This document shows, piece by piece, positions 34,386 through 53,160 of a stretch of DNA of 64,000 nt; position 1 is the stretch's first letter, and each line of letters opens with the position of its first letter. Source of the stretch: an uncultured Atribacterota bacterium (lineage in GTDB: Bacteria > Atribacterota > Phoenicimicrobiia > Phoenicimicrobiales > Stramentimicrobiaceae); contig CAYSRG010000005.1 of assembly GCA_964433555.1 (NCBI GenBank), positions 10,141 through 74,140 on the forward strand, read 5' to 3'. A program made the translations under genes and the position numbers. The notes under the pieces were generated by a model. It did no database searches and was not told where the DNA came from. It was given only the letters and a program-made list of their open reading frames with translations.

Positions 34386-34644
34386 CGTTTATCCTTTCTT
34401 TAGAGAACATGGCAAACTCTTTTAGTTTATCACTATATTTTACCGAATTGGTTTACAGTTTTTAGTTTTTAGTTTCAGAACCGGATAAATAAGCAAGAAA
34501 AATAATATTCCATATTTCACTATTTTTTATTATTGCCGCAGTGTTCTAATAAATTAGAAACACATCAGTGAATATTACTGGTATTGATTTATTTAAACTG
34601 ACTACTGTAATTAAACTTTTTTAATTATTCCTATATTTATAATA

Positions 34645-35939: not shown

Positions 35940-35969
35940 ACAAATACCTCTTTTACTTTCTCAAAGATC

Positions 35970-38285: not shown

Positions 38286-38477
38286 CTTTTCCCCGAAATA
38301 TATTTAAGTACAATGGTTTTTGGTTAAAGGTTTTTGGTTAAAATAGTTAGCATTTAATATTTTTTGTCTTTGATACCCATTATTACTTTTAGTTCTATTT
38401 TATTAAATATTAAAATCTGATACTATATTTTTCTTACACTATACATTATACGATATGAAGTTGATTAAAGAATGGCA

Positions 38478-38915
38478 TTAAGCCTTATTATTATGTTGAT
38501 AATCAGAGAAAAATCTTCTGGCAATTACATAGGCAGCAAAATCGTCATAAGGCCGAGGAGGTATGCGAAGAGAAATAGGAATAAGTTTTAACCAGCCGGT
38601 TGGCGGATTATATTCAAAGAAATATCTCCTTGCTAATCTGGTAGTATCTTCTTCTGTTATTACAGTGATAAATAACTCCGGAAAATTTTTCTTGATAACT
38701 GCAATAATATTTTCTGAATTTGTTCCACTTCCCACTACTATGCTTTTAATCTGGTATTTCCCTAAATAATTTTTTACCCGGCCCATCAATCCCTCATTGT
38801 TTACAACCTCACCTGCTACATATCTTAATTTGTAATCCACCAGTGCTATACCGCACTTTTTTCTACCTGGATCAATGGATAGTATGAATTTATTCACTTT
38901 TAATCCCTTTATCAA
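38478..38915 (-). CDS. RNase H-fold (YqgF/RuvC-like) nuclease-domain protein
   Basis: 145 aa. FILSIDPGRKKCGIALVD resembles the first catalytic-Asp motif of YqgF/RuvC resolvase-like proteins. Assignment is tentative. Confidence 0.35.
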   Translation of the reverse strand: MIKGLKVNKFILSIDPGRKKCGIALVDYKLRYVAGEVVNNEGLMGRVKNYLGKYQIKSIVVGSGTNSENIIAVIKKNFPELFITVITEEDTTRLARRYFFEYNPPTGWLKLIPISLRIPPRPYDDFAAYVIARRFFSDYQHNNKA

Positions 38916-38962
38916 TTCATTGTACTGTTTACCAACAGCATAGATAAATCTTCAAACTGACC

Positions 38963-39733
38963 TTAATTATTAATTCGTTCAGGATAGGTATAAATATTCA
39001 TTCTTTCCCCACGAGCAAATCCAATAAGAGTGACTCCTTGCTTATCCGCCAGTTGAATAGCATAATCAGTAGGAGCAGATCGGGAAATAACAATAGGAAT
39101 ATTTCCCTTTATAATTTTCTGCATAATTCCAGAAGTAATACGACAGGAAGTTAAAATTATCTTATCATCTGTATTAATATTCTTTAAGAGAGCCTCTCCT
39201 AAAATTCTGTCTATTGTATTATAACGGCTTATATCTTCGCAAAATAGAACAATACAACCATTATGATCAGCCAAACCACAACTATGTACGCCGCCACTTA
39301 ACTTAAAAAATTCAGCTTTTTCCTGCATAAGAGTGATGAGCAAATAAATAGTGCTGATATTGAGTTTGCTACTATTATCAACAGAAAGGGGTTCTCTTTT
39401 TCCTGATACTGTCTGCTTAATTTGATTAATAAGATTAGCACTGTATATTTTATCCGGCAAAAATAAAGAATTATTAATCTGGAAATATATTCCTTTCTTT
39501 CCTGTTTTAGTTGAAATTATTTCACGCTTATCCTTCACAATGCCTGCACTGTATAGAAATCCTGTTGCTAAATATTTCAAATTACCCGGACTGCAATTTA
39601 AGGTAACAATGTATTTCTGATTAACATAAACATTTAAAGTTTCCTCTTTAGCTACTAAATCAATAACCTTATTTCTCTCATATTTGTTAACCTGGATTAT
39701 TTCAGTTTCAGCACCCTTATTATTTGTTAACAT
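38963..39733 (-). CDS. fdhD: formate dehydrogenase accessory sulfurtransferase FdhD
   Basis: 256 aa. FdhD-like two-domain architecture with conserved Cys in the SCR..SGIM region. Overlaps mobA. Confidence 0.75.
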   Translation of the reverse strand: MLTNNKGAETEIIQVNKYERNKVIDLVAKEETLNVYVNQKYIVTLNCSPGNLKYLATGFLYSAGIVKDKREIISTKTGKKGIYFQINNSLFLPDKIYSANLINQIKQTVSGKREPLSVDNSSKLNISTIYLLITLMQEKAEFFKLSGGVHSCGLADHNGCIVLFCEDISRYNTIDRILGEALLKNINTDDKIILTSCRITSGIMQKIIKGNIPIVISRSAPTDYAIQLADKQGVTLIGFARGERMNIYTYPERINN

Positions 39734-40379
39734 TCTTTTTTCTCCGGTCTATTTCCAATTTCTCTGCTTCAATAAAATCACCTTGAAAGTTAATATTAAA
39801 AAAAGAATGTAATTCTGGATCACATCTTCTGATTTCCATTTCGGTAATCCGGCGAATTTTTAAAAAGGGAAAAATATCTCTTATCGCCAGTGTACCCTTT
39901 TTTAGATTCTGTTTAATTATTTTCAGGCAATTTTTACTATAAATGGCACATAAAGGTTCGAATAATTCCTTGCCATGAGTGGGAATTACTATATCATAAC
40001 CTTCCATATTTTCTATCATATATTCCACCAATCTTTTCTCAATAAAGGGCATATCATATCCTATAACTAGATTATAAAATGTTTTGGAATATTGTAAACC
40101 TGAAAAAATCCCTCCTAATGGCCCTTTTTGGGGGTAGATATCCTCTACAGTTAACTTATATTGGGGAAATCTATCTCTGGGTCCCACAATAATAATATCT
40201 TGCTCAGTAATTCCTTCTAGAGAAAGAATATTTAAAATAACTCGCTTTATAAGGATGGTACCCCTAAATTTTAGATAGCCTTTATCTTTACCTAAACCTA
40301 TTCTACTGCTTCTACCGCCTGCTAATACTATAACTGAAATAGCAGTATATTTTTTCTCTGTATCCATTATTATACTCAC
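39720..40379 (-). CDS. mobA: molybdenum cofactor guanylyltransferase MobA
   Basis: 219 aa. N-terminal VLAGGRSSRIG..DKG nucleotidyltransferase motif. Confidence 0.75.
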   Translation of the reverse strand: MSIIMDTEKKYTAISVIVLAGGRSSRIGLGKDKGYLKFRGTILIKRVILNILSLEGITEQDIIIVGPRDRFPQYKLTVEDIYPQKGPLGGIFSGLQYSKTFYNLVIGYDMPFIEKRLVEYMIENMEGYDIVIPTHGKELFEPLCAIYSKNCLKIIKQNLKKGTLAIRDIFPFLKIRRITEMEIRRCDPELHSFFNINFQGDFIEAEKLEIDRRKKNVNK

Positions 40380-40433
40380 TAATCTAAATCAATAATAAGG
40401 AATAAAATCAGCATGAGTGCATATTATAACTAA

Positions 40434-40474
40434 GTTAAAAAGGGCTATACCTATTCTTACCAGTATAGCCCTGA
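40434..40474 (-). terminator. intrinsic terminator downstream of focA
   Basis: 10-bp perfect stem agggctatac/gtatagccct (40441-40472) with 12-nt loop. On the minus strand it is followed by TTTTT. Confidence 0.6.
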
Positions 40475-40511
40475 ATTCATTTAATTATTTCTGTTCTATA
40501 TGTTTTATATG

Positions 40512-41384
40512 TTATTTATTCTCTCTTAAATAAACATACCAATATATAGTAGCTACAAAGAAAGCTCCGCCAATTATATTGCCTATAGTTACTGGTAATA
40601 AATTATTAAATAAAAAACTCCCCCAATTCAATCGGCTAAGCTGATCCGTTAATCCTGCTGCTGCTACTACTGAAGTATTGTTTTTTAGCATAATACCCAT
40701 AGGTACAAAATACATATTGGCAATACTATGCTCAAAACCACTGGCTACAAAAGCCATAATGGGGAAATAGATACCAAGAATTTTACCAGGAACATCCTTA
40801 GCTGCTACTGCCATCCATACTGCCAGACATACCAGCCAGTTACAGAGAATTCCTCGTGCTATGGCTGCACTCCAGGTTAGATTAACCTTACCATTGGCTA
40901 TGGCCAAAGCCTTTGCCCCTACAGCAAAATTTCCGGTCTGCCAGAGCTGAGCATTATACATTAGCCATACTACCAGAAGAGAACCAATAAAGTTTGCTAT
41001 ATATACCCAGACCCAGCTGTTTAACAATTTTCCTACTGAAACATTCTTGTTTAAAGTGCCCACCACTATTAAATTATTTCCGGTAAATAATTCTGCCCCG
41101 GCAATAACAACCAGCATAAGACCAACTGAAAAGACACTACCAAATAGAAATTTGGTAATCCCATCACCTACATATTTTACTGCATCATAAGTAACCATAG
41201 TAGCCAGTTGCGCACCAAAACTGATATAAGCACCAGCTAGAATACCCAAGATAATCATTTTACTCCATGATAGACCAGCCTTGTTCTTACCAATAGTGCA
41301 AAAAGCATTAGCAATTGCACCTGGTGGGTTACATGGTGTTGTTACATCTTGCACTGATTGAATTTTATCTTTCTCTGTACTCAA
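40512..41384 (-). CDS. focA: formate/nitrite transporter family protein (FocA-like)
   Basis: 290 aa, 6-TM FNT fold with conserved GAELFTGN and half-helix motifs. Immediately downstream of fdhA. Confidence 0.85.
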   Translation of the reverse strand: MSTEKDKIQSVQDVTTPCNPPGAIANAFCTIGKNKAGLSWSKMIILGILAGAYISFGAQLATMVTYDAVKYVGDGITKFLFGSVFSVGLMLVVIAGAELFTGNNLIVVGTLNKNVSVGKLLNSWVWVYIANFIGSLLVVWLMYNAQLWQTGNFAVGAKALAIANGKVNLTWSAAIARGILCNWLVCLAVWMAVAAKDVPGKILGIYFPIMAFVASGFEHSIANMYFVPMGIMLKNNTSVVAAAGLTDQLSRLNWGSFLFNNLLPVTIGNIIGGAFFVATIYWYVYLRENK

Positions 41385-41417
41385 CTTAGTATCCTCCTTT
41401 TTTGATAATATTTATTT

Positions 41418-44192
41418 TCAGGATATCTTTTTAATCTTAACAGCACACACTTTATATTCTGGTATCTTAGAAACTGGATCAAGGGCTGCAATGGTTAATA
41501 AATTAGCAGCAGCTTCATGGAAATGGAAACTCATGAATACTACACCATTATCAGATTTTTCAGTAACCTTAGCCTTTGCCTGAATCTTTCCTCTTCGAGA
41601 GGCAACTTCAACCATTTCACCATCTTTTATACTCAATTGGCTGGCATCCTGAGGACTAATCTCAACTAATGCTTCTTTATATACTTCGCTTAGACCCTTA
41701 GATTTTCGGGTAACTGTACCGGTATGGAAGTGATATAATACTCTTCCAGTAGTAAAGATTAAAGGATATTCTTCATCAGGAAGTTCGGCAGCCTCTCTAA
41801 ATTCAACTGGGAAGAATTTTCCCTTTCCTCTAGTAAACTTATCCTCATGCAGGAACCTTGTCCCAGGATGGTTGGCATCTGGACAAGGCCATTGTAAACT
41901 TCCCTTTTCCAATCTTGGGTAGAGTATCCCTCTATAAATTGGAGTGAGTTGAGCAATTTCTTCCATAATTTCAGCAGGGCTATTGTAGCTCATATTATTA
42001 TATCCCATTTTCTGGGCTAGTTCACAGATTATCTGCCATTCCGGTTTTGATTCCCCTATGGGTTCAATAGCTTTATGGAATCTTTGTACTCTTCTCTCAG
42101 TATTAGTAATAGTGCCATCTTTCTCAGCAAAACTAGCACCGGGTAATACTACATCAGCTATTTCAGCTGTTTCAGTCATAAACATATCTGATACGACTAA
42201 AAAATCAACTTTCTTTAAAGCTTCACGGGCATGGTTTAAATCAGGATCTGACATAGCTGGATTTTCTGCCATGACCAATATCCCTCTAACTTTGCCTTCA
42301 TAAGCAGCGTTGAGTATTTCAACAACTGTCAATCCAACCTTGTTAGATAAATCTGCCTGCCAGGCTTTAGAAAACTTCTCTTGAACTGCGGGATCCACTA
42401 CGGCCTGATAACCGGAATACACATTGGGCAAAGCTCCCATATCACAAGCACCCTGAACATTGCTTTGTCCCCTTAAGGGATTTACTCCTGAACTCTCCTT
42501 CCCTATATTACCAGTTAACATCGCTATATTGGCAGTTGAAAGAACATTATCAGTGCCGCTAGTATGTTGGGTAATCCCCATGGAATAAATTAAAGAAGTA
42601 TTAGGACCTTTAGCATAAATTCTTGCTGCTTTTCTAATATCTTCAGCAGGTACTCCGGTAATCTTCGCTACTATTTCTGGATTATACTTAAGAACCACTT
42701 CCTTCATTTTTTCATAATCTTCGGTTCTTTCTTTAATAAATTCCTTATCTTCCAATCCCTCAGTAATTATGACATTCATCAAACCATTAAATAGAGCTAC
42801 ATCTGTTCCTGGTCTATGCCTTAACCAGAGAGTAGCATATTTAGCTAATTCTATTTCTCTAGGATCAGCTAAAATTAATTTTGCTCCATTTTTAGTTACC
42901 GCTTTTTTTATTTCCAGAGCAATGATAGGATGGTTCTCAGTAGTGTTGGAACCAGTTAAATAGATAACCGAGGCATGGGCAATTTCCTTAATAGAATTAG
43001 TCATGGCACCACTGCCAAAGGATTGAGCCAAGCCAGCAACGGTGGCTGAATGGCAAAGTCGGGCACAATGGTCAACATTATTGGTTCCCAGGACTGCCCT
43101 GGCAAATTTCATTAGTAGATAGTTTTCTTCATTAGTACATTTGGCTGAAGAAAGAACCGCTAAGCTATCTTGTCCGCTTTCTTTTTTAATCTCTTGAAAT
43201 TTATCACTGATTAACTGCAGTGCTTCATCCCAGGAAGCTGGTTCTAATTTACCATTTTTCCTGATTAAGGGAGTTTTTAAGCGATCTTCTCTATGAATAT
43301 AATCATTTCCAAAACGCCCTTTCACACAGAGATTAATGCCATTTACAACACTATCAGGATTGGAAGTAACCTTAACTACCTTGCCATCTTTAATATTCAG
43401 GTCAAATCCGCATCCGCATCCGCAGTAATTACAGGTAGTATGAACTTTTTCAAATTCCCAGGCTCTTCCTTTTCCTATAGCTGCCTTATCAGTTAATGCT
43501 CCAACAGGGCATACAGCAACGCACTGTCCACAAGAAACACAATTAGAATAATCGGGATTTTCTTCTGAACCAATAGTAATTTTTGTTTCATGTCCTAATT
43601 TATTGCCCAATCCGGCAATGACTTCTGTTTTTGTACCACGATATCCAAATCCAATAGCTCTTGATTGCTGAATCTCGTTACATATCTCTACACATCTTCG
43701 ACAAAGAATGCATTTATTCAAATCTCTTAAAATAAAAGGATTGCTTTCATCGATAGGAAGATTTCTTTCACTTCTGCCAAAACCGGATTCTTTAATCCCC
43801 ATTTCATAAGCTAAGTCCTGCAAATCACATTCACCATTCTTCTCACAGGTCATGCAATCCAGGGGATGCGTAGTTAATAATAATTCTAATACAGCTCGGC
43901 GAGCGTTTATTACTCTTTCACTATGAGTATATACAACCATACCTTCCTGTACCGGATATACGCATGAGGCAACCAGACAGGGATGACCTTTAACCTCTAC
44001 CACACATATACGACAGGAGCCTGGATAATGATTGATTTCTGGCATAGCACATAATGTGGGAATTATTATGCCTGCCTTAGTTGCTGCATCCAGGATTGTT
44101 GAATCAGGATCTGCCATAATTTTTTTGTCATTTATCGTTACCTGTACCAACGGCATCGCTATTTTTTCCTTTTTTACTCCTGTATCTTTCAT
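41418..44192 (-). CDS. fdhA: formate dehydrogenase catalytic subunit (Mo/W-bisPGD), FdsA/FdhA-like with NuoG-like N-terminus
   Basis: 924 aa. N-terminal 2Fe-2S ferredoxin plus His-ligated and two 4Fe-4S motifs. CNYCGCGCG cluster. MGD domain with active-site ...ARLCHSATVAGL..., Cys rather than Sec, and no in-frame stop. Confidence 0.9.
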   Translation of the reverse strand: MKDTGVKKEKIAMPLVQVTINDKKIMADPDSTILDAATKAGIIIPTLCAMPEINHYPGSCRICVVEVKGHPCLVASCVYPVQEGMVVYTHSERVINARRAVLELLLTTHPLDCMTCEKNGECDLQDLAYEMGIKESGFGRSERNLPIDESNPFILRDLNKCILCRRCVEICNEIQQSRAIGFGYRGTKTEVIAGLGNKLGHETKITIGSEENPDYSNCVSCGQCVAVCPVGALTDKAAIGKGRAWEFEKVHTTCNYCGCGCGFDLNIKDGKVVKVTSNPDSVVNGINLCVKGRFGNDYIHREDRLKTPLIRKNGKLEPASWDEALQLISDKFQEIKKESGQDSLAVLSSAKCTNEENYLLMKFARAVLGTNNVDHCARLCHSATVAGLAQSFGSGAMTNSIKEIAHASVIYLTGSNTTENHPIIALEIKKAVTKNGAKLILADPREIELAKYATLWLRHRPGTDVALFNGLMNVIITEGLEDKEFIKERTEDYEKMKEVVLKYNPEIVAKITGVPAEDIRKAARIYAKGPNTSLIYSMGITQHTSGTDNVLSTANIAMLTGNIGKESSGVNPLRGQSNVQGACDMGALPNVYSGYQAVVDPAVQEKFSKAWQADLSNKVGLTVVEILNAAYEGKVRGILVMAENPAMSDPDLNHAREALKKVDFLVVSDMFMTETAEIADVVLPGASFAEKDGTITNTERRVQRFHKAIEPIGESKPEWQIICELAQKMGYNNMSYNSPAEIMEEIAQLTPIYRGILYPRLEKGSLQWPCPDANHPGTRFLHEDKFTRGKGKFFPVEFREAAELPDEEYPLIFTTGRVLYHFHTGTVTRKSKGLSEVYKEALVEISPQDASQLSIKDGEMVEVASRRGKIQAKAKVTEKSDNGVVFMSFHFHEAAANLLTIAALDPVSKIPEYKVCAVKIKKIS

Positions 44193-44223
44193 TTTAATTT
44201 TATTTCAATCCTTTCTTTCAATA

Positions 44224-47200
44224 TTAGTCCTCTCGATATTCACAACGTAAGCACCTGCTGCTTTCTCGACAGGTTATCTCTTTATTCCATGTTTTCTCTA
44301 CCTCGTTATGAACTCCTCTATCTTGAATCGGAAGGAGATGGACTTGAGAACGTGCATAATCTACTGGATCTGCTTCGGGATCAAAATCTACGTTAATTGG
44401 ATCTTTTATTCTCCAGGGATAAGCTCTTTTCTTACCAGTTAAATAAAAATCAATAGCTTCAGCAGCATTCTGTGCTTCTCCTATTGCCTCAACTACAGTA
44501 GCAGGACCTAATGCCACATCACCACCGGCAAAAACATCTTGTATTTTGGTTACTCCTTTTTCAGTGGGAATAGTTTGATCGCGATTAATAATAATTTCTT
44601 CATTATGGAATAAATCTGAAATAGCAGGTTTTTGTCCAATAGATAAGATTAAACAATCGACTTTCTTGATAAAAGTAGATTCTTTAATTTCAATGGGTCT
44701 ACGCCGACCAGAAGCATCATAATTGCCTAATTTCATATTCACTAACTCTACTTCCAGGGAATCTTTGTTTGATTTCACTGACTTTATATTTTGTAGTAAA
44801 GAAATATTTATACCTTCTCTTTCAGCTTCATTAACTTCAGCTTCATCAGCAGGCATTTCTTCTCTGGTTCTTCGATAAACAATGGTAACCTTTGCTCCAA
44901 GCCTTTTAGCAGTTCTAGCGGCATCAATGGCAGAATTACCACCACCAATTACTATTACCTCTTTGCCAATATCAAGCTTTTCCTTTCTATTAAACTTAGA
45001 TAAGAATTCCAAACCGCTAAAAATCCTGGAATCGTCTAGGTTGTCCATCTCAGGCATAATGCAGTCCCAGGCACCAGCAGAAATATAGAATGCCTGGTAA
45101 CCTTCTTTTCTCAGCTGATCTAAAGTTATATCCTCTCCAATCCTGGTATTTGTTCGTATCTTAACTCCATAATCTACCAGGGCTTGGATCTCTTTTTCCA
45201 CAATATTCTTTGGTAAACGATAAGATGGGATAGCATAGGTTAACATTCCACCTGCTTTGGGCTGTGCTTCAAATACTGTTGTTTCATATCCTAACATAGT
45301 TAGAAAATAAGCATTGGAAAGTCCAGAAGGACCGCCACCGATAATGGCAACTTTTTTACCATTTTTATTATTTTTTTCTGGGAAACAATCCAGATAATTA
45401 TCAACCTGATCGGCCATAAATCGTTTAACAGCACGAATATTTATGGCATCATCGATATCCTTTCTTCGACATCTGGATTCACAGAAAGCAGGGCACACTC
45501 TTCCGCATACCGCTGGAAAAGGATTTGTTCTTAAGTGTGCCTGCATTGCTTTTTTATATTGACCCTCTTTGGTATAAGCCAGATATGCCGGTACATTAAC
45601 TGAAGCAGGACAGGAATTATTACAAGGTGCATATACTAATTCTGCACATACTCCTGCTCTACATTTCTTATCTCTAATATGCTCGATATACTCATGCCTG
45701 AAGTATCTTAATGTGGATAAAATCGGATTGGGGGCAGTTTGCCCTAATCCACAAAGAGCTGTATCTTTAATTCGATAAGATAATTCTTCCAGCGTATCTA
45801 AATCTTCCATCTTGCCTTTACCTTCACAAATCCTGGTCAATATCTCCAGCATCACCCTGGTACCTTCACGACAAGGAGTGCATTTACCACAAGATTCATC
45901 CTGAATAAACTCCATGAAATAACGGGCTATATCGACCATACAGGTATCTTCATCCATTACTATCAATCCACCTGAGCCCATAATGGCACCCAGTTCTTTT
46001 AATGTTTCATAATCAACTATGGTATTTAGATGTTGTGCCGGAATGCAACCACCAGACGGACCGCCAATTTGAACAGCTTTAAATTTTTTATTTCCCGGAA
46101 TCCCTCCACCGATATTATAAACAATTTCACCTAGGGTAATACCTATAGGAACTTCGATTAAACCGGTATTGTTAATATTTCCAGCCAGAGCAAATATCTT
46201 AGTTCCTTTACTCTTTTCAGTTCCAACAGAAGCAAAATTTTCAGCTCCATATAAAATTATATAAGGTATATTAGCCAATGTTTCTACATTATTTAAAACA
46301 GTAGGGGATTCAAATAATCCTTTATTAGCAGGGAAGGGGGGTCTTGGCCTGGGTTCTCCCCTCTTGCCTTCAATAGAGCGCATTAAAGCAGTTTCCTCAC
46401 CACAAACAAATGCTCCTGCACCCATTCTAATTTCTACATCAAAATCAAAACCAGTCCCCAGGATATTCTTGCCCAGTAGCTGATGGTTCCTCATCTCTTT
46501 GATGGCAATTTTTAGCCTTTCAATAGCTAAGGGATATTCAGCCCGCACATAAATATATCCCTGGTTAGCTCCAATAGCATAACCGCCAATCATCATAGCT
46601 TCTAATACACTATAGGAGTCTCCTTCCAGCATACTACGATCCATAAATGCACCGGGATCACCTTCGTCTGCATTACATAAAATATATTTTTGTTTACCAG
46701 AAGCTCTTGCCGCAAATTCCCACTTCAATCCAGTTGGAAAACCGGCACCGCCTCTACCTCTCAACCCGGATTTTTTAATCTCATCAATTACTTGCTGGGG
46801 AGTCATCTCTGTCAAAGCCTTCCCCAAAGCCATAAAACCATCGGCACCGATATAATCATCAATGGTATTAACATCAATAATTCCACAGTTTCGGCGAGCA
46901 ATTTTTCTCTGTAATTTAAAGAAATCAATATCTTCTATCATAGCTACTAATTCTTCTGTTTTTGGCTTTTTATAAAAAAGCCGCTGCACTACTCTGCCTT
47001 TTAAGATATGTTCCTGTACAATTTCCCGGGCATCCTCTGGTTTTAATTGTTGATAAAACACTCCATCAGGATAAACAACCATAATGGGTCCCAGTTCACA
47101 TATACCCATACATCCAGTGGTAATAATTTCTACCTCTTTTTCCAGATTAGCCTCTTTTAATGCCACTTCCAACGCTTCTCTAACCCTTACTGAACCATTA

Positions 47201-47253
47201 GACATACAAGAAGTACCATGACATAGAAGAAGCTGGATTCTTATATTATTCAT
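44224..47253 (-). CDS. fusion protein: Trx-like [2Fe-2S] domain + NuoF/HydB-like flavoprotein + GltD/NfnB-like NAD(P)H oxidoreductase
   Basis: 1009 aa. N-terminal Cx4C..Cx3C. NuoF motifs (GRGGAGFPTGLKWE, FMN/NADH site). Cys-rich 4Fe-4S region. C-terminal two Rossmann GxGxxG (IIGGGPSGL, VIGGGNSAID) as in glutamate synthase small subunit. Confidence 0.8.
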   Translation of the reverse strand: MNNIRIQLLLCHGTSCMSNGSVRVREALEVALKEANLEKEVEIITTGCMGICELGPIMVVYPDGVFYQQLKPEDAREIVQEHILKGRVVQRLFYKKPKTEELVAMIEDIDFFKLQRKIARRNCGIIDVNTIDDYIGADGFMALGKALTEMTPQQVIDEIKKSGLRGRGGAGFPTGLKWEFAARASGKQKYILCNADEGDPGAFMDRSMLEGDSYSVLEAMMIGGYAIGANQGYIYVRAEYPLAIERLKIAIKEMRNHQLLGKNILGTGFDFDVEIRMGAGAFVCGEETALMRSIEGKRGEPRPRPPFPANKGLFESPTVLNNVETLANIPYIILYGAENFASVGTEKSKGTKIFALAGNINNTGLIEVPIGITLGEIVYNIGGGIPGNKKFKAVQIGGPSGGCIPAQHLNTIVDYETLKELGAIMGSGGLIVMDEDTCMVDIARYFMEFIQDESCGKCTPCREGTRVMLEILTRICEGKGKMEDLDTLEELSYRIKDTALCGLGQTAPNPILSTLRYFRHEYIEHIRDKKCRAGVCAELVYAPCNNSCPASVNVPAYLAYTKEGQYKKAMQAHLRTNPFPAVCGRVCPAFCESRCRRKDIDDAINIRAVKRFMADQVDNYLDCFPEKNNKNGKKVAIIGGGPSGLSNAYFLTMLGYETTVFEAQPKAGGMLTYAIPSYRLPKNIVEKEIQALVDYGVKIRTNTRIGEDITLDQLRKEGYQAFYISAGAWDCIMPEMDNLDDSRIFSGLEFLSKFNRKEKLDIGKEVIVIGGGNSAIDAARTAKRLGAKVTIVYRRTREEMPADEAEVNEAEREGINISLLQNIKSVKSNKDSLEVELVNMKLGNYDASGRRRPIEIKESTFIKKVDCLILSIGQKPAISDLFHNEEIIINRDQTIPTEKGVTKIQDVFAGGDVALGPATVVEAIGEAQNAAEAIDFYLTGKKRAYPWRIKDPINVDFDPEADPVDYARSQVHLLPIQDRGVHNEVEKTWNKEITCRESSRCLRCEYRED

Positions 47254-47275
47254 AATTAATCTACTCCTTATTAAA

Positions 47276-47773
47276 CTATTTGTATCTCTCTAAAATTGCG
47301 TCTAATTTACTGGGAGTTAACCGACCATGAACTTCATTGTCAACCATAATAACTGGAGCCATTCCGCATGACCCAAAACAACGTTGTTCTCCTAAAGTAA
47401 ATCTCAGATCTTCTGTTGTTTCGCCTATCTTTATACCCAATTTATTTTCTAATGCCTCCAGAATCTTTTTAGCACCTCTGACATAACAAGCTGTTCCCAT
47501 ACAGATTGTAATAGTGTGCCGACCTACAGGCTGTGTTTTGAAATAAGAATAAAATGTAACTACTCCAAATACTTCACTAACAGAAATATTCATCTCCTCA
47601 GCAACGAATTCTTGGACTTCTGAAGGTAAATAACCAAACAAGGATTGTGCTTTATACAAGACTGGGATTAAATAGCCCTTTTTCTCTTTATTATCTCTAA
47701 TAAAACTCCCTAATTCCTGGTACTTTTCTTCAACAGTGCATTCATCATTTTTAATGATAGCTGTTTCACTCAT
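47276..47773 (-). CDS. NuoE/HydC-like thioredoxin-fold [2Fe-2S] subunit
   Basis: 165 aa. Cx4C (ICMGTAC) and Cx3C (CFGSC). Confidence 0.8.
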   Translation of the reverse strand: MSETAIIKNDECTVEEKYQELGSFIRDNKEKKGYLIPVLYKAQSLFGYLPSEVQEFVAEEMNISVSEVFGVVTFYSYFKTQPVGRHTITICMGTACYVRGAKKILEALENKLGIKIGETTEDLRFTLGEQRCFGSCGMAPVIMVDNEVHGRLTPSKLDAILERYK

Positions 47774-48141
47774 TATTTTTTCCCCTTTGAAAATAAATAT
47801 TTTTCTACTACTCTATTATTTAAAACATGTTCATTAAAAATTATCCTTGCTGCCTCTACATCAACATTGCGATAAGTTACCGGTCTATCTTCTTCTACAT
47901 ATACATGAATCATAGGTTCTTGGGCGCAAAAACCAAAACATCCTGAAGCAGTAATAATAATATCCGTTTTTTTGCTTTTTTCAATCAATTCCAAGAATTC
48001 ATTCATTGTTTCTCTAGCCCCAGCAGCTATTCCACAACTACCCATTCCTACTACTATCTTGACACGATGCTTTCCCGATCTAAGCTTTAAATCTTTCTTT
48101 ACCTTCTCCCGCATTATCTTTAGTTCTTCAAAATTTTTCAT
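47773..48141 (-). CDS. small thioredoxin-like ferredoxin-fold protein (HydD-like; only 3 Cys)
   Basis: 122 aa. GSCG ... GCFGFC. Resembles the N-terminal domain of HydB. Confidence 0.5.
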   Translation of the reverse strand: MKNFEELKIMREKVKKDLKLRSGKHRVKIVVGMGSCGIAAGARETMNEFLELIEKSKKTDIIITASGCFGFCAQEPMIHVYVEEDRPVTYRNVDVEAARIIFNEHVLNNRVVEKYLFSKGKK

Positions 48142-48199
48142 AGCTCCTCCTCTCCAAACATTAATTTATATTGAATAATATTAATACCTTAAAAATAAG

Positions 48200-48736
48200 T
48201 TACCTAATATCTATTTTTTTAAATTCTTTTTGTGATACCTCATAAATATGTTTTCTTATATTTATATAATTTTTTAATCCCTTAGCAATTTCATTTCGTA
48301 ATTCCAGGAAATCTAAAATCAGTTCCTCTCTATCCTCTTTGGTAATAAATAATTTAAGATTAATCTCCGGCCAGGCAAAAAATATATCTGTAAAAGTCCA
48401 GGCCAAATCACCAAAGGGTTTGGCATCAATATGAGACATGTCTATCTTAAATTGAAGAGCAGTCCCTCCTTTTTTATTTATCCTTCTTATCTTTAAATAT
48501 CCGCCGGTATCCTCTGCCGTTCTTTTTAATAAGGGGAGACCCAATCCAACCCTTCTGGTCTTCCTGGAAGTTATAAAAGGATCTAATACTTCCTGCCCAA
48601 TAATTCCTTTCCCATTATCGGAAATGCTACAAAAAAAAATACTTTTAGTATAAGTTATTTTCACAATAACTTCATTAGCCCCGGCATTAACTGAATTTTC
48701 TATAATATCAAAGAAATGGTCCGCTATATTTTTCAT
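48200..48736 (-). CDS. GHKL/histidine-kinase-like ATPase domain protein
   Basis: 178 aa. N-box ENSVNAG, G1 DNGKGI, G2 GLGLPL. Confidence 0.65.
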   Translation of the reverse strand: MKNIADHFFDIIENSVNAGANEVIVKITYTKSIFFCSISDNGKGIIGQEVLDPFITSRKTRRVGLGLPLLKRTAEDTGGYLKIRRINKKGGTALQFKIDMSHIDAKPFGDLAWTFTDIFFAWPEINLKLFITKEDREELILDFLELRNEIAKGLKNYINIRKHIYEVSQKEFKKIDIR

Positions 48737-49487
48737 TTCCGGTCTTCCTTAGAAAATCTTGCAATGAGCTAAAATCTATTATATGATTATCATCTTTTAC
48801 TTCCAAAAAAAATGTTCCAATATCTTCCAAAAAGTGGCTATCTGAACCGCTAATTACTGGGAATCCTTCCAGTAAGTCTCCAATTTCATATTTCTTATTT
48901 ATCCATTCAAATCTTGATACTTCTACTGCATCAAAATTACTAGTAGGATCTAAAAAACCTATCTGGCTCATTAAACTGCAATAATCTCTATTAATATGAG
49001 CCGGTATTGCTATTCCACCCAGAAAATGAATGTAGTCAATTAACTCATCTAAGCTGATTTGTAAAGCATTTTGCCTTAACATATAATCTATTTCAACTAT
49101 CTCTCCTTTTTCATCATAGATTAGCTGGTCACCAAAAAAAGAAGGTTTATTTTTCATTTTTGGCAGACAATCACTTATCTTCTTCTCCATCTCTCTCATA
49201 CTATATTCATCTGGGAAATAACCCAATATATGAATCTCTTCCCGGGTAGTCAGCTCAATCCCGAGAATAATATTAACTGAGCTTATTTTATTAATTTTTC
49301 TAATTAAAATCGAATGGGCAACCGCATTGTGATCAGTAATAGCAATTAAGTTTAGTCCGCTTTTTTCTGCCTTTTTCAATATGTTTTGTGGTGACATAAT
49401 ATTTTCCGCGCACGCTGAAAGAGAAGAGTGAATATGTAAATCAATCTTGATCAGATTTGCCTCCCAGCATCTGGTACAATAGACCAC
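48708..49487 (-). CDS. PHP-domain metal-dependent phosphoesterase
   Basis: 259 aa. IDLHIHSSLS...ITDHN His motifs of the PHP family. Confidence 0.75.
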   Translation of the reverse strand: MVYCTRCWEANLIKIDLHIHSSLSACAENIMSPQNILKKAEKSGLNLIAITDHNAVAHSILIRKINKISSVNIILGIELTTREEIHILGYFPDEYSMREMEKKISDCLPKMKNKPSFFGDQLIYDEKGEIVEIDYMLRQNALQISLDELIDYIHFLGGIAIPAHINRDYCSLMSQIGFLDPTSNFDAVEVSRFEWINKKYEIGDLLEGFPVISGSDSHFLEDIGTFFLEVKDDNHIIDFSSLQDFLRKTGNEKYSGPFL

Positions 49488-49785
49488 ATATTTGAAAAGA
49501 ATTTTTTTCAGTTCTCAATAGATTAATCTGTTCTTCCCTGGCTTTTTCTATCAATTCCTGGTTTATTTCTACATTATTGGTAAAGATAATTGCCCTTATA
49601 TCCTTGATCAGCGCTACAGCTATACTATTTTTATGTGCTTGGATAGTAATCCATACACTATCATTGCTGGCATGGGCAATAACATCTGACATTAAATCTC
49701 CACAATAACCTGTTTTGATTTCCTCATCTGAACAGAATACAATCTTCTCTAAGGAACATCTATTAATAATCTGGCTTAATTTCAT
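49441..49785 (-). CDS. DRTGG-domain protein
   Basis: 114 aa, DRTGG-like fold (GDLMSDV...). Paired with the CBS gene. Confidence 0.55.
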   Translation of the reverse strand: MKLSQIINRCSLEKIVFCSDEEIKTGYCGDLMSDVIAHASNDSVWITIQAHKNSIAVALIKDIRAIIFTNNVEINQELIEKAREEQINLLRTEKNSFQICGLLYQMLGGKSDQD

Positions 49786-49787
49786 CT

Positions 49788-50720
49788 CTATCCTCCTATA
49801 TGGATAACTGCTTTTAAAATAGTACCGGTTTCCATAGAAGATTCTAATTCTAGATGATCAGCGCATTTTTTTATATTGGGTAAACCCATGCCTGCACCAA
49901 ATCCTAAAGCCCTGATCTGTTCAGAAGCAGTTGTAAAACCCGGTTTCATTGCTTCTTCTATATCCGGAATACCTGGACCATAATCAACGGCAGTAATAAT
50001 AATACTATTCTGTTCCAATTCTACTGAAATATATCCCCCTAAGGAATGGATACTGATATTCATCTCTGCCTCATAGCAAATAATGGCAACTCTTCGCATA
50101 ATCTGTTTATCTATGGTCATTTTTTGTAAATAAGTTCTTATGATACTGGCTACTCTGCCAGCATTATCAAAGTCAGCTTTTTTGACTTCAAAACGAAGTG
50201 GCTTCTGTGGAGTATTCTTAATTAAGGTATCGGATAGCTGATAATTTCTGTTTTCTTTTTGTTCCACTTTCTCGGCAATGGTTTGAATAGTTAGCAGCAG
50301 TCTATTTAAAATATCTCCCATAGTTATGATACCAACTATTTTACGGGAATGGACATTCCCTGTTACCGGCAAACGACCAAATTTATATCTTTCAAACTTT
50401 TTTATAGCTGAAACCAAAGAATAATTTTGAGGAATGGTTATCACATCTTTAGTCATATAATCTTTTACCGTATCGTTCACATAATCTTCATCCAGAGCAG
50501 TAATTACATTATCAATACTGACAATACCAATAATATTTTTCTGTTCATCCAGGATGGGAACTCCTGAAATTCTATTTTGTTTCAAAGATAATTGAATCTC
50601 ACGAAAGGTAGCCTGCTCACCAAAAAATATTACCTTACTGGTCATAGCATCTTTCACTTTTAACTCATAAACCAGCTCATTGGCTAAAGTTAATTTTTCT
50701 CTGGAATGTAAAATTGTCAT
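49788..50720 (-). CDS. CBS-pair + GHKL ATPase domain protein
   Basis: 310 aa. Two CBS motifs, C-terminal HATPase-like G-boxes (GPGIPD, GFGAGMGL). Confidence 0.7.
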   Translation of the reverse strand: MTILHSREKLTLANELVYELKVKDAMTSKVIFFGEQATFREIQLSLKQNRISGVPILDEQKNIIGIVSIDNVITALDEDYVNDTVKDYMTKDVITIPQNYSLVSAIKKFERYKFGRLPVTGNVHSRKIVGIITMGDILNRLLLTIQTIAEKVEQKENRNYQLSDTLIKNTPQKPLRFEVKKADFDNAGRVASIIRTYLQKMTIDKQIMRRVAIICYEAEMNISIHSLGGYISVELEQNSIIITAVDYGPGIPDIEEAMKPGFTTASEQIRALGFGAGMGLPNIKKCADHLELESSMETGTILKAVIHIGG

Positions 50721-51064
50721 TTCTTCTCTTCACTAATAATTGCCTCAACAATTGCTCGACAGGCATCAAACATTGTTTTGGAGGTCATTAGAAGTGGGAT
50801 ACGGTGGGAACGGGCTAGACCAATTGCTTCCTGTTCAGGAGCTTTCCCCCTCACAAAAACCACACCTACCCCTCCGGCAATCTCAGCGGTTCTTACCACC
50901 TGCTGAGAGGTTAATCCAGTTAATAATAAAAAATCGTCCTTGCTTAAAGCAAGAACATCACTTAATAAATCACTGGCTGCAAATTCCTCAATATTCTGGT
51001 CTAGCAAGTTTTCTCCAGTCAAGACCTCAGCATCTAATATGTTGACAATATCTTTTATTTTCAT
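50717..51064 (-). CDS. DRTGG-domain protein
   Basis: 115 aa, second DRTGG paralog. First gene of the FDH operon. Confidence 0.55.
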   Translation of the reverse strand: MKIKDIVNILDAEVLTGENLLDQNIEEFAASDLLSDVLALSKDDFLLLTGLTSQQVVRTAEIAGGVGVVFVRGKAPEQEAIGLARSHRIPLLMTSKTMFDACRAIVEAIISEEKK

Positions 51065-51163
51065 AATATACTCTCATGAATATAAAGTTTAAATAAATAG
51101 AAAAGGTAATAACTAAAATAAATAAAAATTAATTCTTATATTACTTTCTACCAAAAGATAAAT

Positions 51164-51181
51164 TTGTGAAAAATATCACAA
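51164..51181. promoter_or_regulatory. Rex operator (Rex box)
   Basis: TTGTGAA-AAAT-ATCACAA, one mismatch to the Firmicutes Rex consensus TTGTGAAnnnnTTCACAA. Lies between rex and the first gene of the FDH operon. Confidence 0.6.
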
Positions 51182-51317
51182 AGCACACCAAGTCATTTTA
51201 TCACATGCCCTTAATATATGTCAAACTCGTCCTTAAATTTTTGGCCATAAATTATTTCGCCCTCTAGTTTTATTTTAAATACATCACTCCTGTTGGCAAA
51301 TAATAATTTTACAAAAT

Positions 51318-51911
51318 TTAAGATAAGTAATAGACCAGCTTTTCAAGTTCAATAGCAATATCAATATGTTTAATTGATATTCTCCGGGGATGTTTAATAC
51401 TAATGGGAGCAAAATTAAGTATTGACCTGACTCCTCCAGCTATCATCTGGTCAGCTACTTCCTGAGCCGATTGGGAAGGTACTGTAATAATACCAATTCG
51501 TATTTTCTGCTCTTTGAGAAATTTTTCCATGTCCTGGATATGTCTTATCCTGATATGGCCAATTTTTTTACCTACTTTAGCCATATCATTATCAAATACT
51601 GCTTTTATGATGAAGCCTCTTTTGGAGAATCCTTTATAACGAAGGAAGGCAGTCCCTAAATTGCCAGCACCAGCGAGCACTAAATTCCATTTTTGATTTG
51701 ATTTCAATATCTCCTTTAATTTATTAAATAATTCCAGGACAGGATAACCAATTCCCCTTTTCCCAAATTCACCAAAATAAGAAAAGTCTTTTCTAATTTG
51801 ATGGGGATTAATACCAGTTATATCTGACAGTCTGGACGAGGAAATTGTGGAAAACTCATTAACTCTCTTTGCTTCAATCAAAGATTCTAAGGTTCTATGA
51901 TAAATTGACAA
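51318..51911 (-). CDS. rex: redox-sensing transcriptional repressor Rex
   Basis: 197 aa. Winged-helix ISS..L....G....QIRKDFSYFGEFG, Rossmann GAGNLG NADH-binding domain. Confidence 0.85.
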   Translation of the reverse strand: MSIYHRTLESLIEAKRVNEFSTISSSRLSDITGINPHQIRKDFSYFGEFGKRGIGYPVLELFNKLKEILKSNQKWNLVLAGAGNLGTAFLRYKGFSKRGFIIKAVFDNDMAKVGKKIGHIRIRHIQDMEKFLKEQKIRIGIITVPSQSAQEVADQMIAGGVRSILNFAPISIKHPRRISIKHIDIAIELEKLVYYLS

Positions 51912-52014
51912 TCGATCGATAGTAGCTTGCGGAATGTACTTTTTACTAATCTTAATAAGACATTATCCTTTCTAAATGTTGTATCTCTGAAAGACTGTCT
52001 GAATACTCTTATTG

Positions 52015-52659
52015 TTATCTCTGGGTAATCCAGGTTTCATAACCCAATTTCTTTAATTGCTGAGAAGCTTCTTCAGCTTGTGCTCGCAAGGGGTAGGCAC
52101 CTATCTGCACTTTAAAAGCTTTATTATGTTCTATAACAAAGGTCTGAAATCCATGATTTTCGATTTCTCTGGCTAAACCCCTGGCATTGCTCTCAATGGA
52201 AAAGTAACCTACCTGAATGGTATAAACTGTACCTGATGGAGTTACTGTCTCAGTCTGACTGACAGAAACTTCTTGTTTTGGCGGTGTTGGTGTAGTCACA
52301 GTCTGTCGGGGTACTGAATTACTTTCCTTCTGAGCCATTTGCTCCGTTGTTTGGCTTGAAACTTCTCTTTCTACTGGCTTTTGTGCTATAGATGTGTCAG
52401 ATTCAGTCGGTCTTTCACCAGTAGGGATATCCTGAGTAATTAACTGATCAATTTCCCTTTGCTCTTCTTCACCAACTTTAACCATTTCCTCTCTAGAAAT
52501 AGTTTGCTGTTCTGATTCTAATTCCTCTGGAGGCAAGAAACTCTTTTCCCTTGCCATATAAAAGGCAACGGATAAGATAACTATCGCTCCAACTAAGATA
52601 ATGAGGGTTTCCAGATTACTCCTGGTTTTTCTTTTATAAATACGTCTGGTTCTTCTCAA
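52015..52659 (-). CDS. SPOR-domain protein (TTG start)
   Basis: 214 aa. N-terminal TM, low-complexity Pro/Thr/Gln linker, C-terminal SPOR domain. Confidence 0.6.
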   Translation of the reverse strand: MRRTRRIYKRKTRSNLETLIILVGAIVILSVAFYMAREKSFLPPEELESEQQTISREEMVKVGEEEQREIDQLITQDIPTGERPTESDTSIAQKPVEREVSSQTTEQMAQKESNSVPRQTVTTPTPPKQEVSVSQTETVTPSGTVYTIQVGYFSIESNARGLAREIENHGFQTFVIEHNKAFKVQIGAYPLRAQAEEASQQLKKLGYETWITQR

Positions 52660-53160
52660 AGATATGCCCCTCCTTTAATTAAAATAGTCAGGGAGTATTC
52701 CCCTACCATCCTTCTGTCTATTTTTTAAATCCATATTGATTTTTTGTCAAACTTTACCCGATAATCTTGTTAAAAATTCTGTTTTGAAAACATTCAGGAT
52801 AAATCATTCAAACAACAAAAGGAAATTATATCTTTATTATAATATAATATTACAATCCTTTGTACTTTACTGCAACTTTTTATAATCTTTGCTCCAATAG
52901 CAAATATTATTGTTTAATTCGACCCCAATATTATGTTATTTCAATATCCTATTTGAGTTATGTTCTATAAAACATTCTTCAATTACACCAATGATGTACT
53001 TTTTTACAGCTTTATTCATACAGGACTACATAGTACAATAACCATGATCTACATGCCCTTATTTTTATGATATTATATTAGCATAGACTCGATGATCATA
53101 TGAGTTAAGAACTTAATTATAAAATATTTAAATTTTTAAAGATTAAGGAATGCATTTTCA

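What the first reader, a model, noticed from the sequence alone, without database searches (positions are those of the whole stretch)
51164..51911. Rex repressor gene followed by a near-consensus Rex box upstream of the FDH operon
TTGTGAAAAATATCACAA at 51164-51181 sits 83 bp downstream of rex and 83 bp upstream of the first operon gene. This implies NADH/NAD+-responsive control of the formate-oxidising module. No comparable box was seen upstream of the Mbh or hyp operons, so the two modules may be regulated differently.
Basis: partly seen in the sequence, partly recalled or inferred. Interest (0 to 1): 0.5.

Follow-up and report, generated by a model that had tools for sequence, protein, structure and literature searches.

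The report
Rex operator gating formate dehydrogenase operon
A gene for the NADH-sensing repressor Rex is followed by a Rex-type binding site just after the promoter of an NADH-linked formate dehydrogenase operon, and at least 12 lineages of the largely uncultured phylum Atribacterota keep this layout; it is a standard redox switch that I found no description of in this phylum.

Summary
The 18-bp palindrome TTGTGAAAAATATCACAA is at window 51164-51181 as reported. It is the only match within one mismatch of the Rex consensus TTGTGAANNNNTTCACAA in 64 kb, where 0.02 are expected. The gene upstream is a true rex.

The box sits 13 nt downstream of the best sigma-70-like promoter in the region, at about +8 to +25. 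The window comes from an Atribacterota genome. In 12 distinct lineages (Rex identity 56-95 %), the -35, the extended -10 and both box arms are invariant or nearly so, while flanking columns have decayed to about 40 % identity.

The operon encodes six small regulatory-type proteins, NuoE, a NuoF-GltD fusion, a Cys-type FdhA and FocA. The best reading is a classical Rex operator that derepresses an NADH-reoxidising, probably formate-producing, enzyme when NADH/NAD+ rises.

No comparable box lies upstream of Mbh, either here or in five other lineages. The hyp genes may be co-transcribed with the FDH operon, so their independence cannot be judged. This is a new member of a known kind and of modest interest.

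The parts
51318..51956 (-). rex, the redox-sensing repressor, 212 aa. It has an N-terminal winged helix (IRKDFSYFGEFGKRGIGY), a Rossmann fold with GAGNLG, and an FDND motif.
   Evidence: Pfam PF06971 plus PF02629. NCBIfam Rex NF003995 scores 260.7 bits against a cut-off of 126. phmmer against PDB Rex entries 2VT2, 5ZZ5, 3WG9 and 3IKT gives E = 1e-40 to 1e-44. The GxGxxG motif was located.
51954..51969 (-). Probable rex translation start: Shine-Dalgarno AGGA (51969-51966), 9 nt, then ATT (51956-51954). There is no in-frame ATG, GTG or TTG between the in-frame TAA (51965-51963) and the conserved N-terminus.
   Evidence: The same SD-to-ATT/ATC spacing of 8-9 nt is seen in L007-L010, L173 and L174. 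The N-terminal residues are conserved at protein level (alignment A2).
51219..51224 (-). -35 hexamer TTGACA of the operon promoter.
   Evidence: Best promoter-like match (11 of 12) in 32500-51400. It is invariant in 10 of 10 aligned lineages (alignment A4).
51195..51203 (-). Extended -10 element, TGATAAAAT.
   Evidence: Pairwise identity is 0.84 across 10 lineages.
51164..51181 (-). Rex operator. It reads TTGTGATATTTTTCACAA on the transcribed strand. It starts 13 nt after the -10, so it covers about +8 to +25 of the predicted transcript.
   Evidence: The arms TTGTGA and TCACAA are 100 % identical in all aligned lineages and the spacer varies.
51065..51188 (-). Predicted 5' untranslated leader of about 124 nt, with the RBS GAGAG at 51075-51071.
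   Evidence: Read from the sequence. The start site is inferred from the -10 position and was not measured.
47773..51064 (-). Six small accessory genes at the head of the operon: DRTGG (50717-51064), CBS-CBS-HATPase (49788-50720), DRTGG (49441-49785), PHP (48708-49487), HATPase (48200-48736) and a 2Fe-2S ferredoxin-like protein (47773-48141).
   Evidence: Pfam and NCBIfam scans. The same gene order appears in L167, L169, L171, L172, L173 and L174.
47276..47773 (-). NuoE/HydC-like 2Fe-2S subunit.
   Evidence: PF01257, E = 2e-52. NCBIfam NuoE and HoxE models also match.
44224..47253 (-). NuoF/HydB-like FMN/NADH subunit fused to a GltD/NfnB-like FAD/NAD(P)H domain, 1009 aa.
   Evidence: PF01512, PF10589, PF14691 and PF07992. 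Motifs GRGGAGFPTG, GGGPSG and GGGNSA were located.
41418..44192 (-). FdhA, the formate dehydrogenase catalytic subunit. It has a NuoG-like Fe-S N-terminus and a Cys at the active-site position (RLCHS).
   Evidence: TIGR01591 scores 907 bits against a cut-off of 666. Pfam hits are and the motif.
38963..41384 (-). FocA formate channel (40512-41384), MobA (39720-40379) and FdhD (38963-39733).
   Evidence: PF01226, PF12804 and PF02634.

Best explanation
The palindrome is a functional Rex operator. A Rex dimer, made from the gene immediately upstream, binds it when the NADH/NAD+ ratio is low. The site lies 13 nt downstream of the -10 element, at about +8 to +25. Bound Rex would therefore block open-complex formation or promoter escape at the operon promoter, and would also block any read-through from rex. 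When NADH accumulates it binds the Rossmann domains, the dimer closes and leaves the DNA, and the operon is transcribed.

The operon encodes an NADH- and ferredoxin-linked (Bfu/HydABC-type) formate dehydrogenase plus the formate channel FocA. This most likely re-oxidises NADH by reducing CO2 to formate for export, which would close a homeostatic loop.

Shown here by computation: the identity of rex, the box, the conserved promoter-operator geometry, and the operon content. Inferred: binding, the NADH response, the position of the transcription start, and the direction of catalysis.
For: (1) The box is the only match with <=1 mismatch to the Rex consensus in 64 kb, against 0.02 expected. Its PWM score is 27.6 bits against 7.1 for the runner-up.
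(2) rex is a true family member with an intact recognition helix and GxGxxG motif.
(3) The best sigma-70-like promoter in 19 kb (TTGACA, 18 nt, TGnTAAAAT) ends 13 nt upstream of the box.
(4) A box with 0-1 mismatch lies between rex and the next operon in 12 distinct Atribacterota lineages: window, L008, L009, L010/L168, L088, L089/L167, L169, L170, L171, L172, L173 and L174.
(5) Pairwise identity is 1.0 for the -35, 1.0 for the box arms, 0.84 for the extended -10 and 0.74 for the spacer. It is 0.40 for all other columns.
(6) The -10-to-box distance is 12-16 nt, and 13 nt in 9 of 12 lineages. The box-to-start-codon distance varies from 88 to 460 nt.
(7) In L170 the downstream operon is different (a second NiFe hydrogenase with an FAD/NAD module), yet the rex-box pair is retained. 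This ties the box to rex.
(8) As a control, 1.69 Mb of rex loci from other phyla hold only one box with <=1 mismatch.
(9) Precedents exist. C. bescii Rex binds sites upstream of the hyd and ech operons in gel-shift assays (PMC6391272). Rex motifs have been predicted upstream of fdh in Calderihabitans (PMC7306483). C. kluyveri and C. autoethanogenum have rex adjacent to its target operons (PMC6405883).
Against: There is no binding, expression or transcription-start data for any Atribacterota Rex. The core TGTGA-N6-TCACA also matches the CRP/FNR-type motif. One lineage (L007/L087) shows no box in the ~230 nt (L007) or ~200 nt (L087) before its contigs end. Only about 64 kb of this genome could be scanned, so the rest of the regulon, and hence the organism's own motif, is unknown. 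The direction of FDH catalysis rests on regulatory logic and on a genomic inference in the literature.
Confidence: 0.8

Rival explanations
1. The palindrome is the operator of a CRP/FNR-family or other dimeric regulator that recognises TGTGA-N6-TCACA, and its position next to rex is incidental.
For: The core TGTGAnnnnnnTCACA is also the classical CRP half-site pair (established knowledge). Sequence alone cannot assign a binding protein. The exact core pattern occurs once in the window.
Against: The outermost T and A (TTGTGA...TCACAA) extend the match to the 18-bp Rex consensus, and they are invariant in all 12 lineages. The box stays next to rex even where the downstream operon has been replaced, as in L170. 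No CRP/FNR-type regulator was found among the 50 window ORFs scanned against Pfam or in the Mbh-to-rex genes annotated. A few ORFs of 90 aa or more and all shorter ones were not scanned.
Confidence: 0.07
2. The inverted repeat acts at the RNA level, either as a weak intrinsic terminator for rex or as a leader hairpin that affects mRNA stability or translation.
For: The repeat can form a 7-bp hairpin followed by a U-rich tract (AUUUAUCUUUU). No other terminator-like site lies between rex and the operon.
Against: The fold is weak. The minimum free energy is -9.6 kcal/mol for 56 nt, with z = -1.18, and 27 of 200 shuffles fold at least as well. The stem has only 2 G-C pairs and fails the terminator scan. 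The arms never vary, so there is no covariation, whereas the loop does vary. That is the pattern of a protein-DNA operator. The element lies downstream of a conserved promoter. Its distance to the start codon varies from 88 to 460 nt.
Confidence: 0.04
3. It is a chance AT-rich palindrome with no function.
For: The genome is 35 % G+C. Roughly 0.5 sites with <=1 mismatch per Mb are expected from base composition (own calculation).
Against: Only 0.02 are expected in this window. The site is conserved at the same place in 12 lineages while the flanks have decayed to about 40 % identity.
Confidence: 0.01

Closest known systems
Caldicellulosiruptor bescii Rex and its operators upstream of the bifurcating [FeFe] hydrogenase (hyd) and Ech [NiFe] hydrogenase operons (PMC6391272)
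   Same: The repressor family is the same and so is the consensus, TTGTGAANNNNTTCACAA. The target is again a HydABC/Bfu-type NADH- and ferredoxin-linked enzyme that disposes of reductant.
   Different: Here the catalytic subunit is a molybdopterin FdhA rather than an [FeFe] hydrogenase. The membrane NiFe hydrogenase (Mbh) next door has no box, whereas C. bescii Ech does. rex lies directly upstream of its target. The phylum is different (Atribacterota). Nothing has been tested experimentally.
Operons adjacent to rex in clostridia: C. kluyveri rex-crt1-bcd1-etfB1A1-hbd1-nfn, and C. autoethanogenum rex upstream of nfn and a multimeric [FeFe] hydrogenase (PMC6405883)
   Same: The regulator gene sits immediately upstream of the redox operon it controls.
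   Different: In C. kluyveri, rex is described as part of the transcription unit. Here a separate, conserved promoter and operator lie between rex and the operon.
Predicted Rex motifs upstream of the fdh, hyd and ech clusters in Calderihabitans maritimus (PMC7306483), and of hnd in Solidesulfovibrio fructosivorans (PMC10084766)
   Same: A TTGTGA-N6-TCACAA motif lies upstream of a formate dehydrogenase or bifurcating hydrogenase cluster, and was read as NADH-dependent derepression.
   Different: Those are single-genome predictions. Here the site is backed by a 12-lineage phylogenetic footprint and a fixed promoter-operator geometry.
Electron-bifurcating formate dehydrogenase of Gottschalkia (Clostridium) acidurici (HylABC-FdhF2) and the Fdh branch of the Bfu family (PMC9304861; cited in PMC6776118)
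   Same: A NuoE-like subunit, a NuoF-like subunit and an FdhA with a NuoG-like Fe-S N-terminus.
   Different: In the window and in L008 the NuoF-like subunit carries a C-terminal GltD/NfnB-like FAD/NAD(P)H domain. That domain is absent from L167, L169 and L172. Bifurcation was not tested.
E. coli CRP site (TGTGA-N6-TCACA)
   Same: The 16-bp palindromic core is identical (established knowledge).
   Different: The outer TT and AA positions fit the Rex consensus and are invariant. The site travels with rex rather than with a cNMP-domain regulator.

Membership tests
Rex (redox-sensing transcriptional repressor) | N-terminal winged-helix DNA-binding domain (PF06971) with the recognition segment IRKD(L/F)SxFG | tested here: met
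   PF06971, E = 1.5e-14. IRKDFSYFGEFGKRGIGY aligns with B-Rex, T. maritima Rex and T. ethanolicus Rex. It is invariant in five Atribacterota sequences.
Rex (redox-sensing transcriptional repressor) | C-terminal Rossmann NAD(H)-binding domain with GxGxxG and an acidic residue after beta-2 | tested here: met
   PF02629, E = 7e-21. GAGNLG at residues 97-102 and FDND are present.
Rex (redox-sensing transcriptional repressor) | Full-length match to curated Rex family models and to solved Rex structures | tested here: met
   NCBIfam NF003995 scores 260.7 bits (cut-off 126) and NF003993 scores 251.8 bits (cut-off 217). PDB entries 2VT2, 5ZZ5, 3WG9 and 3IKT match at E = 1e-40 to 1e-44 over about 200 residues.
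Rex (redox-sensing transcriptional repressor) | DNA binding that is relieved by NADH | not testable with these tools
   This needs gel shifts or in vitro transcription with purified protein.
Rex operator (ROP / Rex box) | 18-bp palindrome matching TTGTGAANNNNTTCACAA | tested here: met
   13 of 14 specified positions match and the site is unique in the window. The consensus is as quoted in PMC6391272.
Rex operator (ROP / Rex box) | Position overlapping or just downstream of the promoter of a redox or fermentation operon | tested here: met
   The box starts 13 nt downstream of the conserved extended -10. The promoter is predicted, not mapped.
Rex operator (ROP / Rex box) | Conservation upstream of orthologous operons in related genomes | tested here: met
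   Found in 12 lineages with 100 % arm identity, against 40 % in flanking columns.
Rex operator (ROP / Rex box) | The same motif upstream of other Rex-regulon genes in the same genome | not testable with these tools
   Only the 64-kb window and loci of about 20 kb were available, and no second site was found in them. Complete genomes are needed.
Bfu/HydABC-type (electron-bifurcating) formate dehydrogenase | NuoE-like subunit, NuoF-like subunit and a catalytic subunit with a NuoG-like Fe-S N-terminus, all in one operon | tested here: met
   PF01257; PF01512 plus PF10589; PF13510 plus PF10588 plus PF00384 plus PF01568; and TIGR01591.
Bfu/HydABC-type (electron-bifurcating) formate dehydrogenase | Ferredoxin- and NAD-coupled bifurcating or confurcating activity | not testable with these tools
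   This needs biochemistry. The literature assignment for JS1 Atribacteria is itself a genomic inference.
CRP/FNR-type operator (considered as a rival) | A cognate cNMP-binding/HTH_Crp regulator encoded nearby or in the genome | tested here: inconclusive
   None was found among the 50 window ORFs scanned against Pfam or in the genes annotated. The rest of the genome was not available.

The most novel reading that the evidence does not exclude
The rex-operator cassette may be a phylum-wide switch that decides how Atribacterota dispose of electrons during syntrophy. On this reading, ferredoxin-driven H2 production by Mbh escapes Rex, while NADH-dependent CO2 reduction to formate is switched on only when NADH/NAD+ rises. 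In the window's lineage the gated enzyme would also be a so far uncharacterised variant: a Bfu-type FDH whose NuoF subunit is fused to a GltD/NfnB-like NADPH/FAD domain. That would link NADH, NADPH, ferredoxin and formate in one complex. rex itself would be kept at low level by a conserved AUU/AUC start codon.
Probability: 0.25. Interest if true: 0.5.

Novelty: new member of a known kind. Interest (0 to 1): 0.3.

Why it matters
Atribacterota are abundant in subsurface sediments, oil reservoirs and digesters but are barely cultivated. I found no paper that links Rex to them, so their gene regulation looks largely unexplored. A near-invariant promoter-operator pair next to rex gives a concrete, testable regulatory rule for the phylum: NADH/NAD+ gates the NADH-linked formate dehydrogenase, but apparently not the membrane hydrogenase. 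It also supplies a ready-made probe sequence for gel shifts and a PWM for regulon scans of complete genomes. For Rex biology it only extends a well-known mechanism to another phylum.

Tried and rejected
(1) Second Rex sites. Consensus-mismatch and PWM scans of the whole window found nothing above background. The 2-mismatch site at 55902-55919 lies inside the NiFe large-subunit gene and scores 7.1 bits, below the mean null maximum of 9.8. The 3-mismatch site at 52782-52799, upstream of the SPOR-rex genes, scores about 0 bits. So there is no evidence for rex autoregulation or for Mbh or hyp control.

(2) Terminator or RNA-hairpin reading. This was rejected because of the weak fold and the lack of covariation.

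(3) Rfam scan of the window. It returned only tRNAs and nothing in the leader.

(4) Genome-wide regulon definition. This was not possible because no complete genome of this organism could be fetched.

(5) Programmed +1 frameshift from the overlapping mini-ORF (ATG TCT TAT TAA) as the origin of the Rex N-terminus. I considered this and set it aside. The codons at the would-be shift site do not allow re-pairing. The mini-ORF is absent in L173. The Shine-Dalgarno spacing of 8-9 nt fits the ATT/ATC codon rather than the ATG.

(6) The primary Rex comparative-genomics papers (PMC3294762 and PMC4248821) are not held in the library. The consensus is therefore cited through PMC6391272.

(7) L007/L087, the one lineage without a box. 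Its contigs end about 230 nt (L007) and about 200 nt (L087) after rex, and no longer contig of that lineage was recovered.

Full report
**Observation**

The sequence TTGTGAAAAATATCACAA is at window 51164-51181 exactly as reported. All genes in this part of the window are on the minus strand, where the site reads TTGTGATATTTTTCACAA. It differs at one of the 14 specified positions from the general Rex consensus TTGTGAANNNNTTCACAA, quoted from Ravcheev et al. 2012 in PMC6391272. It is the only site in the 64-kb window within one mismatch of that consensus. Dinucleotide-preserving shuffles give 0.02 such sites on average.

The rex stop codon is at 51320-51318, which puts 136 nt between rex and the box. 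The first operon ATG is at 51064-51062, which puts 99 nt between the box and the first gene. The upper coordinate of the finding, 51911, is only an internal TTG of rex.

**The regulator**

The ORF upstream has the Rex architecture, Pfam PF06971 plus PF02629. It passes the curated NCBIfam Rex models, with NF003995 at 260.7 bits against a cut-off of 126. It aligns over about 200 residues with the solved Rex proteins of B. subtilis, T. maritima, T. ethanolicus and Thermus at E = 1e-40 to 1e-44. The recognition segment IRKDFSYFGEFGKRGIGY and the dinucleotide motif GAGNLG are both intact.

The family models start matching 15-17 codons upstream of the TTG that ORF callers choose. That stretch is conserved at protein level among relatives.

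**Promoter geometry**

The best sigma-70-like promoter in 19 kb lies on the minus strand. It is TTGACA (51224-51219), an 18-nt spacer, then TGATAAAAT ending at 51195, which matches 11 of 12 positions and has an extended -10 TG. The box begins 13 nt after the -10. With a start site about 7 nt after the -10, the box covers roughly +8 to +25. That is a classical repressor position.

No terminator-like site separates rex from this promoter.

**Origin and comparative evidence**

Identical proteins occur on 110-kb metagenome contigs. The closest genomes are Atribacterota, including Ca. Stramentimicrobium fermentans. I collected rex loci without reference to the box, using three routes:
- a genome-collection scan;
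- a metagenome scan;
- a protein search followed by contig look-ups.

The gene order Mbh, hycI, SPOR gene, rex, then an operon is kept throughout.

A box with 0 or 1 mismatch lies between rex and the next operon in 12 distinct lineages. These span Rex identities from 95 % down to 56 %: window, L008, L009, L010/L168, L088, L089/L167, L169, L170, L171, L172, L173 and L174. L169 and L174 carry the perfect consensus.

In a 10-lineage alignment (A4), pairwise identity by feature is as follows:

| Feature | Pairwise identity |
|---|---|
| -35 hexamer | 1.00 |
| Two 6-bp box arms | 1.00 |
| Extended -10 | 0.84 |
| 6-bp centre of the box | 0.74 |
| All other columns | 0.40 |

The -10-to-box distance is 12-16 nt, and 13 nt in most lineages. 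The box-to-start-codon distance ranges from 88 to 460 nt. What is conserved is therefore the geometry between promoter and operator, not a feature of the mRNA leader.

Only the L007/L087 lineage shows no box, and its contigs end about 230 nt (L007) and about 200 nt (L087) after rex. As a control, 153 rex loci from other phyla (1.69 Mb) contain just one box with <=1 mismatch, and it lies directly upstream of that locus's own rex.

**What is regulated**

The operon contains, in order:
- six small genes: DRTGG, CBS-CBS-HATPase, DRTGG, PHP, HATPase and a 2Fe-2S ferredoxin-like protein;
- a NuoE-like subunit;
- a 1009-aa NuoF-like subunit fused to a GltD/NfnB-like FAD/NAD(P)H domain;
- a 924-aa FdhA (TIGR01591, 907 bits) with a NuoG-like Fe-S N-terminus and Cys at the active-site position;
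- FocA, MobA and FdhD.

This is the Bfu/HydABC-type electron-bifurcating FDH layout (PMC9304861). Liu et al. reported such an enzyme in JS1 Atribacteria. They proposed that it re-oxidises NADH and reduced ferredoxin, with Mbh disposing of excess reduced ferredoxin as H2 (PMC6776118).

**Mechanism**

I conclude that this is a standard Rex operator. At low NADH/NAD+ the Rex dimer occupies +8 to +25 and blocks the promoter. NADH binding releases it.

Rex regulons are derepressed by NADH. The coherent reading is therefore that the enzyme consumes NADH, reducing CO2 to formate for export through FocA. If the enzyme instead produced NADH by oxidising formate, derepression would become a positive feedback loop.

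In L170 the operon after the rex-box pair is different. It encodes an Fe-S/FAD-NAD module and a second group-4 NiFe hydrogenase. This shows that the box travels with rex and that its targets are NAD(P)H-linked routes for disposing of reductant.

**Rival explanations**

- **CRP/FNR-type operator.** It shares the TGTGA-N6-TCACA core. However, the invariant outer TT and AA positions, the linkage to rex, and the absence of such a regulator among the window ORFs scanned all argue against it. A few ORFs were not scanned.
- **RNA hairpin or terminator.** The fold is weak (z = -1.18) and shows no covariation.
- **Chance.** The conservation data exclude it.

**Mbh and hyp**

A PWM built from the Atribacterota sites scores the box at 27.6 bits and nothing else in the window above 7.1 bits. 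The mean best score in shuffled windows is 9.8 bits.

There is no site with <=2 mismatches anywhere in L167, L168, L170, L172 or L174. These loci hold the first Mbh gene with 10-448 nt of upstream sequence.

The hyp genes (HypF 35970-38285, HypD, HypE) follow FdhD on the same strand, with no intergenic terminator-like site between them. Whether they are regulated independently cannot be decided.

**Comparison with what is known, and novelty**

Several precedents exist:
- Rex repression of bifurcating hydrogenase operons has been shown in C. bescii.
- Rex motifs have been predicted upstream of fdh and hnd clusters.
- Target operons adjacent to rex are known in clostridia.

No paper in the library links Rex with Atribacteria. 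The finding is real and well supported, but it is a new member of a known kind.

Its modest added value lies in three things. The promoter-operator conservation is phylum-wide and almost invariant. There is a contrast between a Rex-gated FDH and a box-free Mbh. And two side observations deserve follow-up: the likely AUU/AUC start of rex, and the NuoF-GltD fusion.

Noticed in passing
window 51954-51969 (minus strand); also L007 ~7990-8003, L008 ~4000-4015, L009 ~536-551, L010 ~7988-8003, and L173 and L174 just upstream of position 10001: rex has no in-frame ATG, GTG or TTG before its conserved N-terminus; an in-frame stop lies 2 codons upstream. A Shine-Dalgarno sequence (AGGA or AAGG) sits 8-9 nt before a conserved ATT or ATC codon in at least 7 lineages of this clade, which points to AUU/AUC initiation. 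Gene callers therefore truncate the protein to 170-197 aa. More distant Atribacterota (L170, L171) use TTG or ATG. A 3-5 codon mini-ORF (ATG TCT TAT TAA) overlaps the start in five loci but is absent in L173.
   Followed up: partly
window 44224-47253 (minus strand); L008 9121-12171: The NuoF/HydB-like subunit is fused to a GltD/NfnB-like domain that has two dinucleotide motifs (GGGPSG and GGGNSA), giving 1009 aa here and 1016 aa in L008. Sister lineages L167, L169 and L172 have an unfused subunit of 597-598 aa in front of FdhA. The fusion would add an NADPH/FAD site to a Bfu-type FDH. I did not check how widespread or how well characterised this architecture is.
   Followed up: partly
L010 8640-16140 and L168 10514-18014 (Ca. 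Stramentimicrobium fermentans lineage): The Rex box, promoter, NuoE, NuoF, MobA and FdhD are retained, but the FdhA and FocA genes are missing and the first accessory genes are shortened. This looks like operon decay with the regulatory region intact.
   Followed up: no
L170 10634-20633: In this lineage (Rex 58 % identical) the rex-box pair is followed by a different operon. It encodes an Fe-S protein, an FAD/NAD-binding protein (PF00175 plus PF10418) and a second group-4 membrane NiFe hydrogenase. The -35 element lies inside the 3' end of rex.
   Followed up: partly
L008 4790-5229: About 370 nt of extra sequence lies between the Rex box and the first operon gene. It contains two copies of a G+C-rich element (…CTCCCTAATCCTC…TTAGAAGGGAGAGGTAAGGTGAGGGTGAT…) and looks like a small repeat or MITE-type insertion into the leader.
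   Followed up: no
window 47773-51064 (minus strand): Six small regulatory-type genes head the operon: DRTGG, CBS-CBS-HATPase (anti-sigma-F-like), DRTGG, PHP phosphoesterase, HATPase and a 2Fe-2S ferredoxin-like protein. They keep the same order in most Atribacterota loci. Their role is unknown, and they suggest a second, post-transcriptional layer of control.
   Followed up: no
window 55902-55919: TAGTGAATAACTTCACCA has 2 mismatches to the Rex consensus and lies inside the NiFe hydrogenase large-subunit gene. Its PWM score of 7.1 bits is below the mean best score of shuffled windows (9.8), so it is most likely a chance match.
   Followed up: yes
window 41418-44192 (minus strand), motif near residue 380: FdhA has Cys (ARLCHSATV) where selenocysteine-type formate dehydrogenases have Sec, so this is a Cys-type enzyme. 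The ORF is uninterrupted.
   Followed up: yes
window 32739-41384 (minus strand): FocA, MobA, FdhD, a 145-aa ORF with no Pfam hit (38478-38915), HypF, HypD, HypE and an AMMECR1 protein follow FdhA on the same strand, with no intergenic terminator-like site. The hyp maturation genes may be partly co-transcribed with the Rex-gated operon.
   Followed up: partly
window 52015-52659 (minus strand) and the equivalent position in all related loci: A SPOR-domain (peptidoglycan-binding) gene always sits immediately upstream of rex, 18 to about 130 nt away in the related loci and 58 nt here, and is probably co-transcribed with it. hycI is always divergent from this pair. The reason for linking a SPOR gene to rex is unclear.
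   Followed up: no
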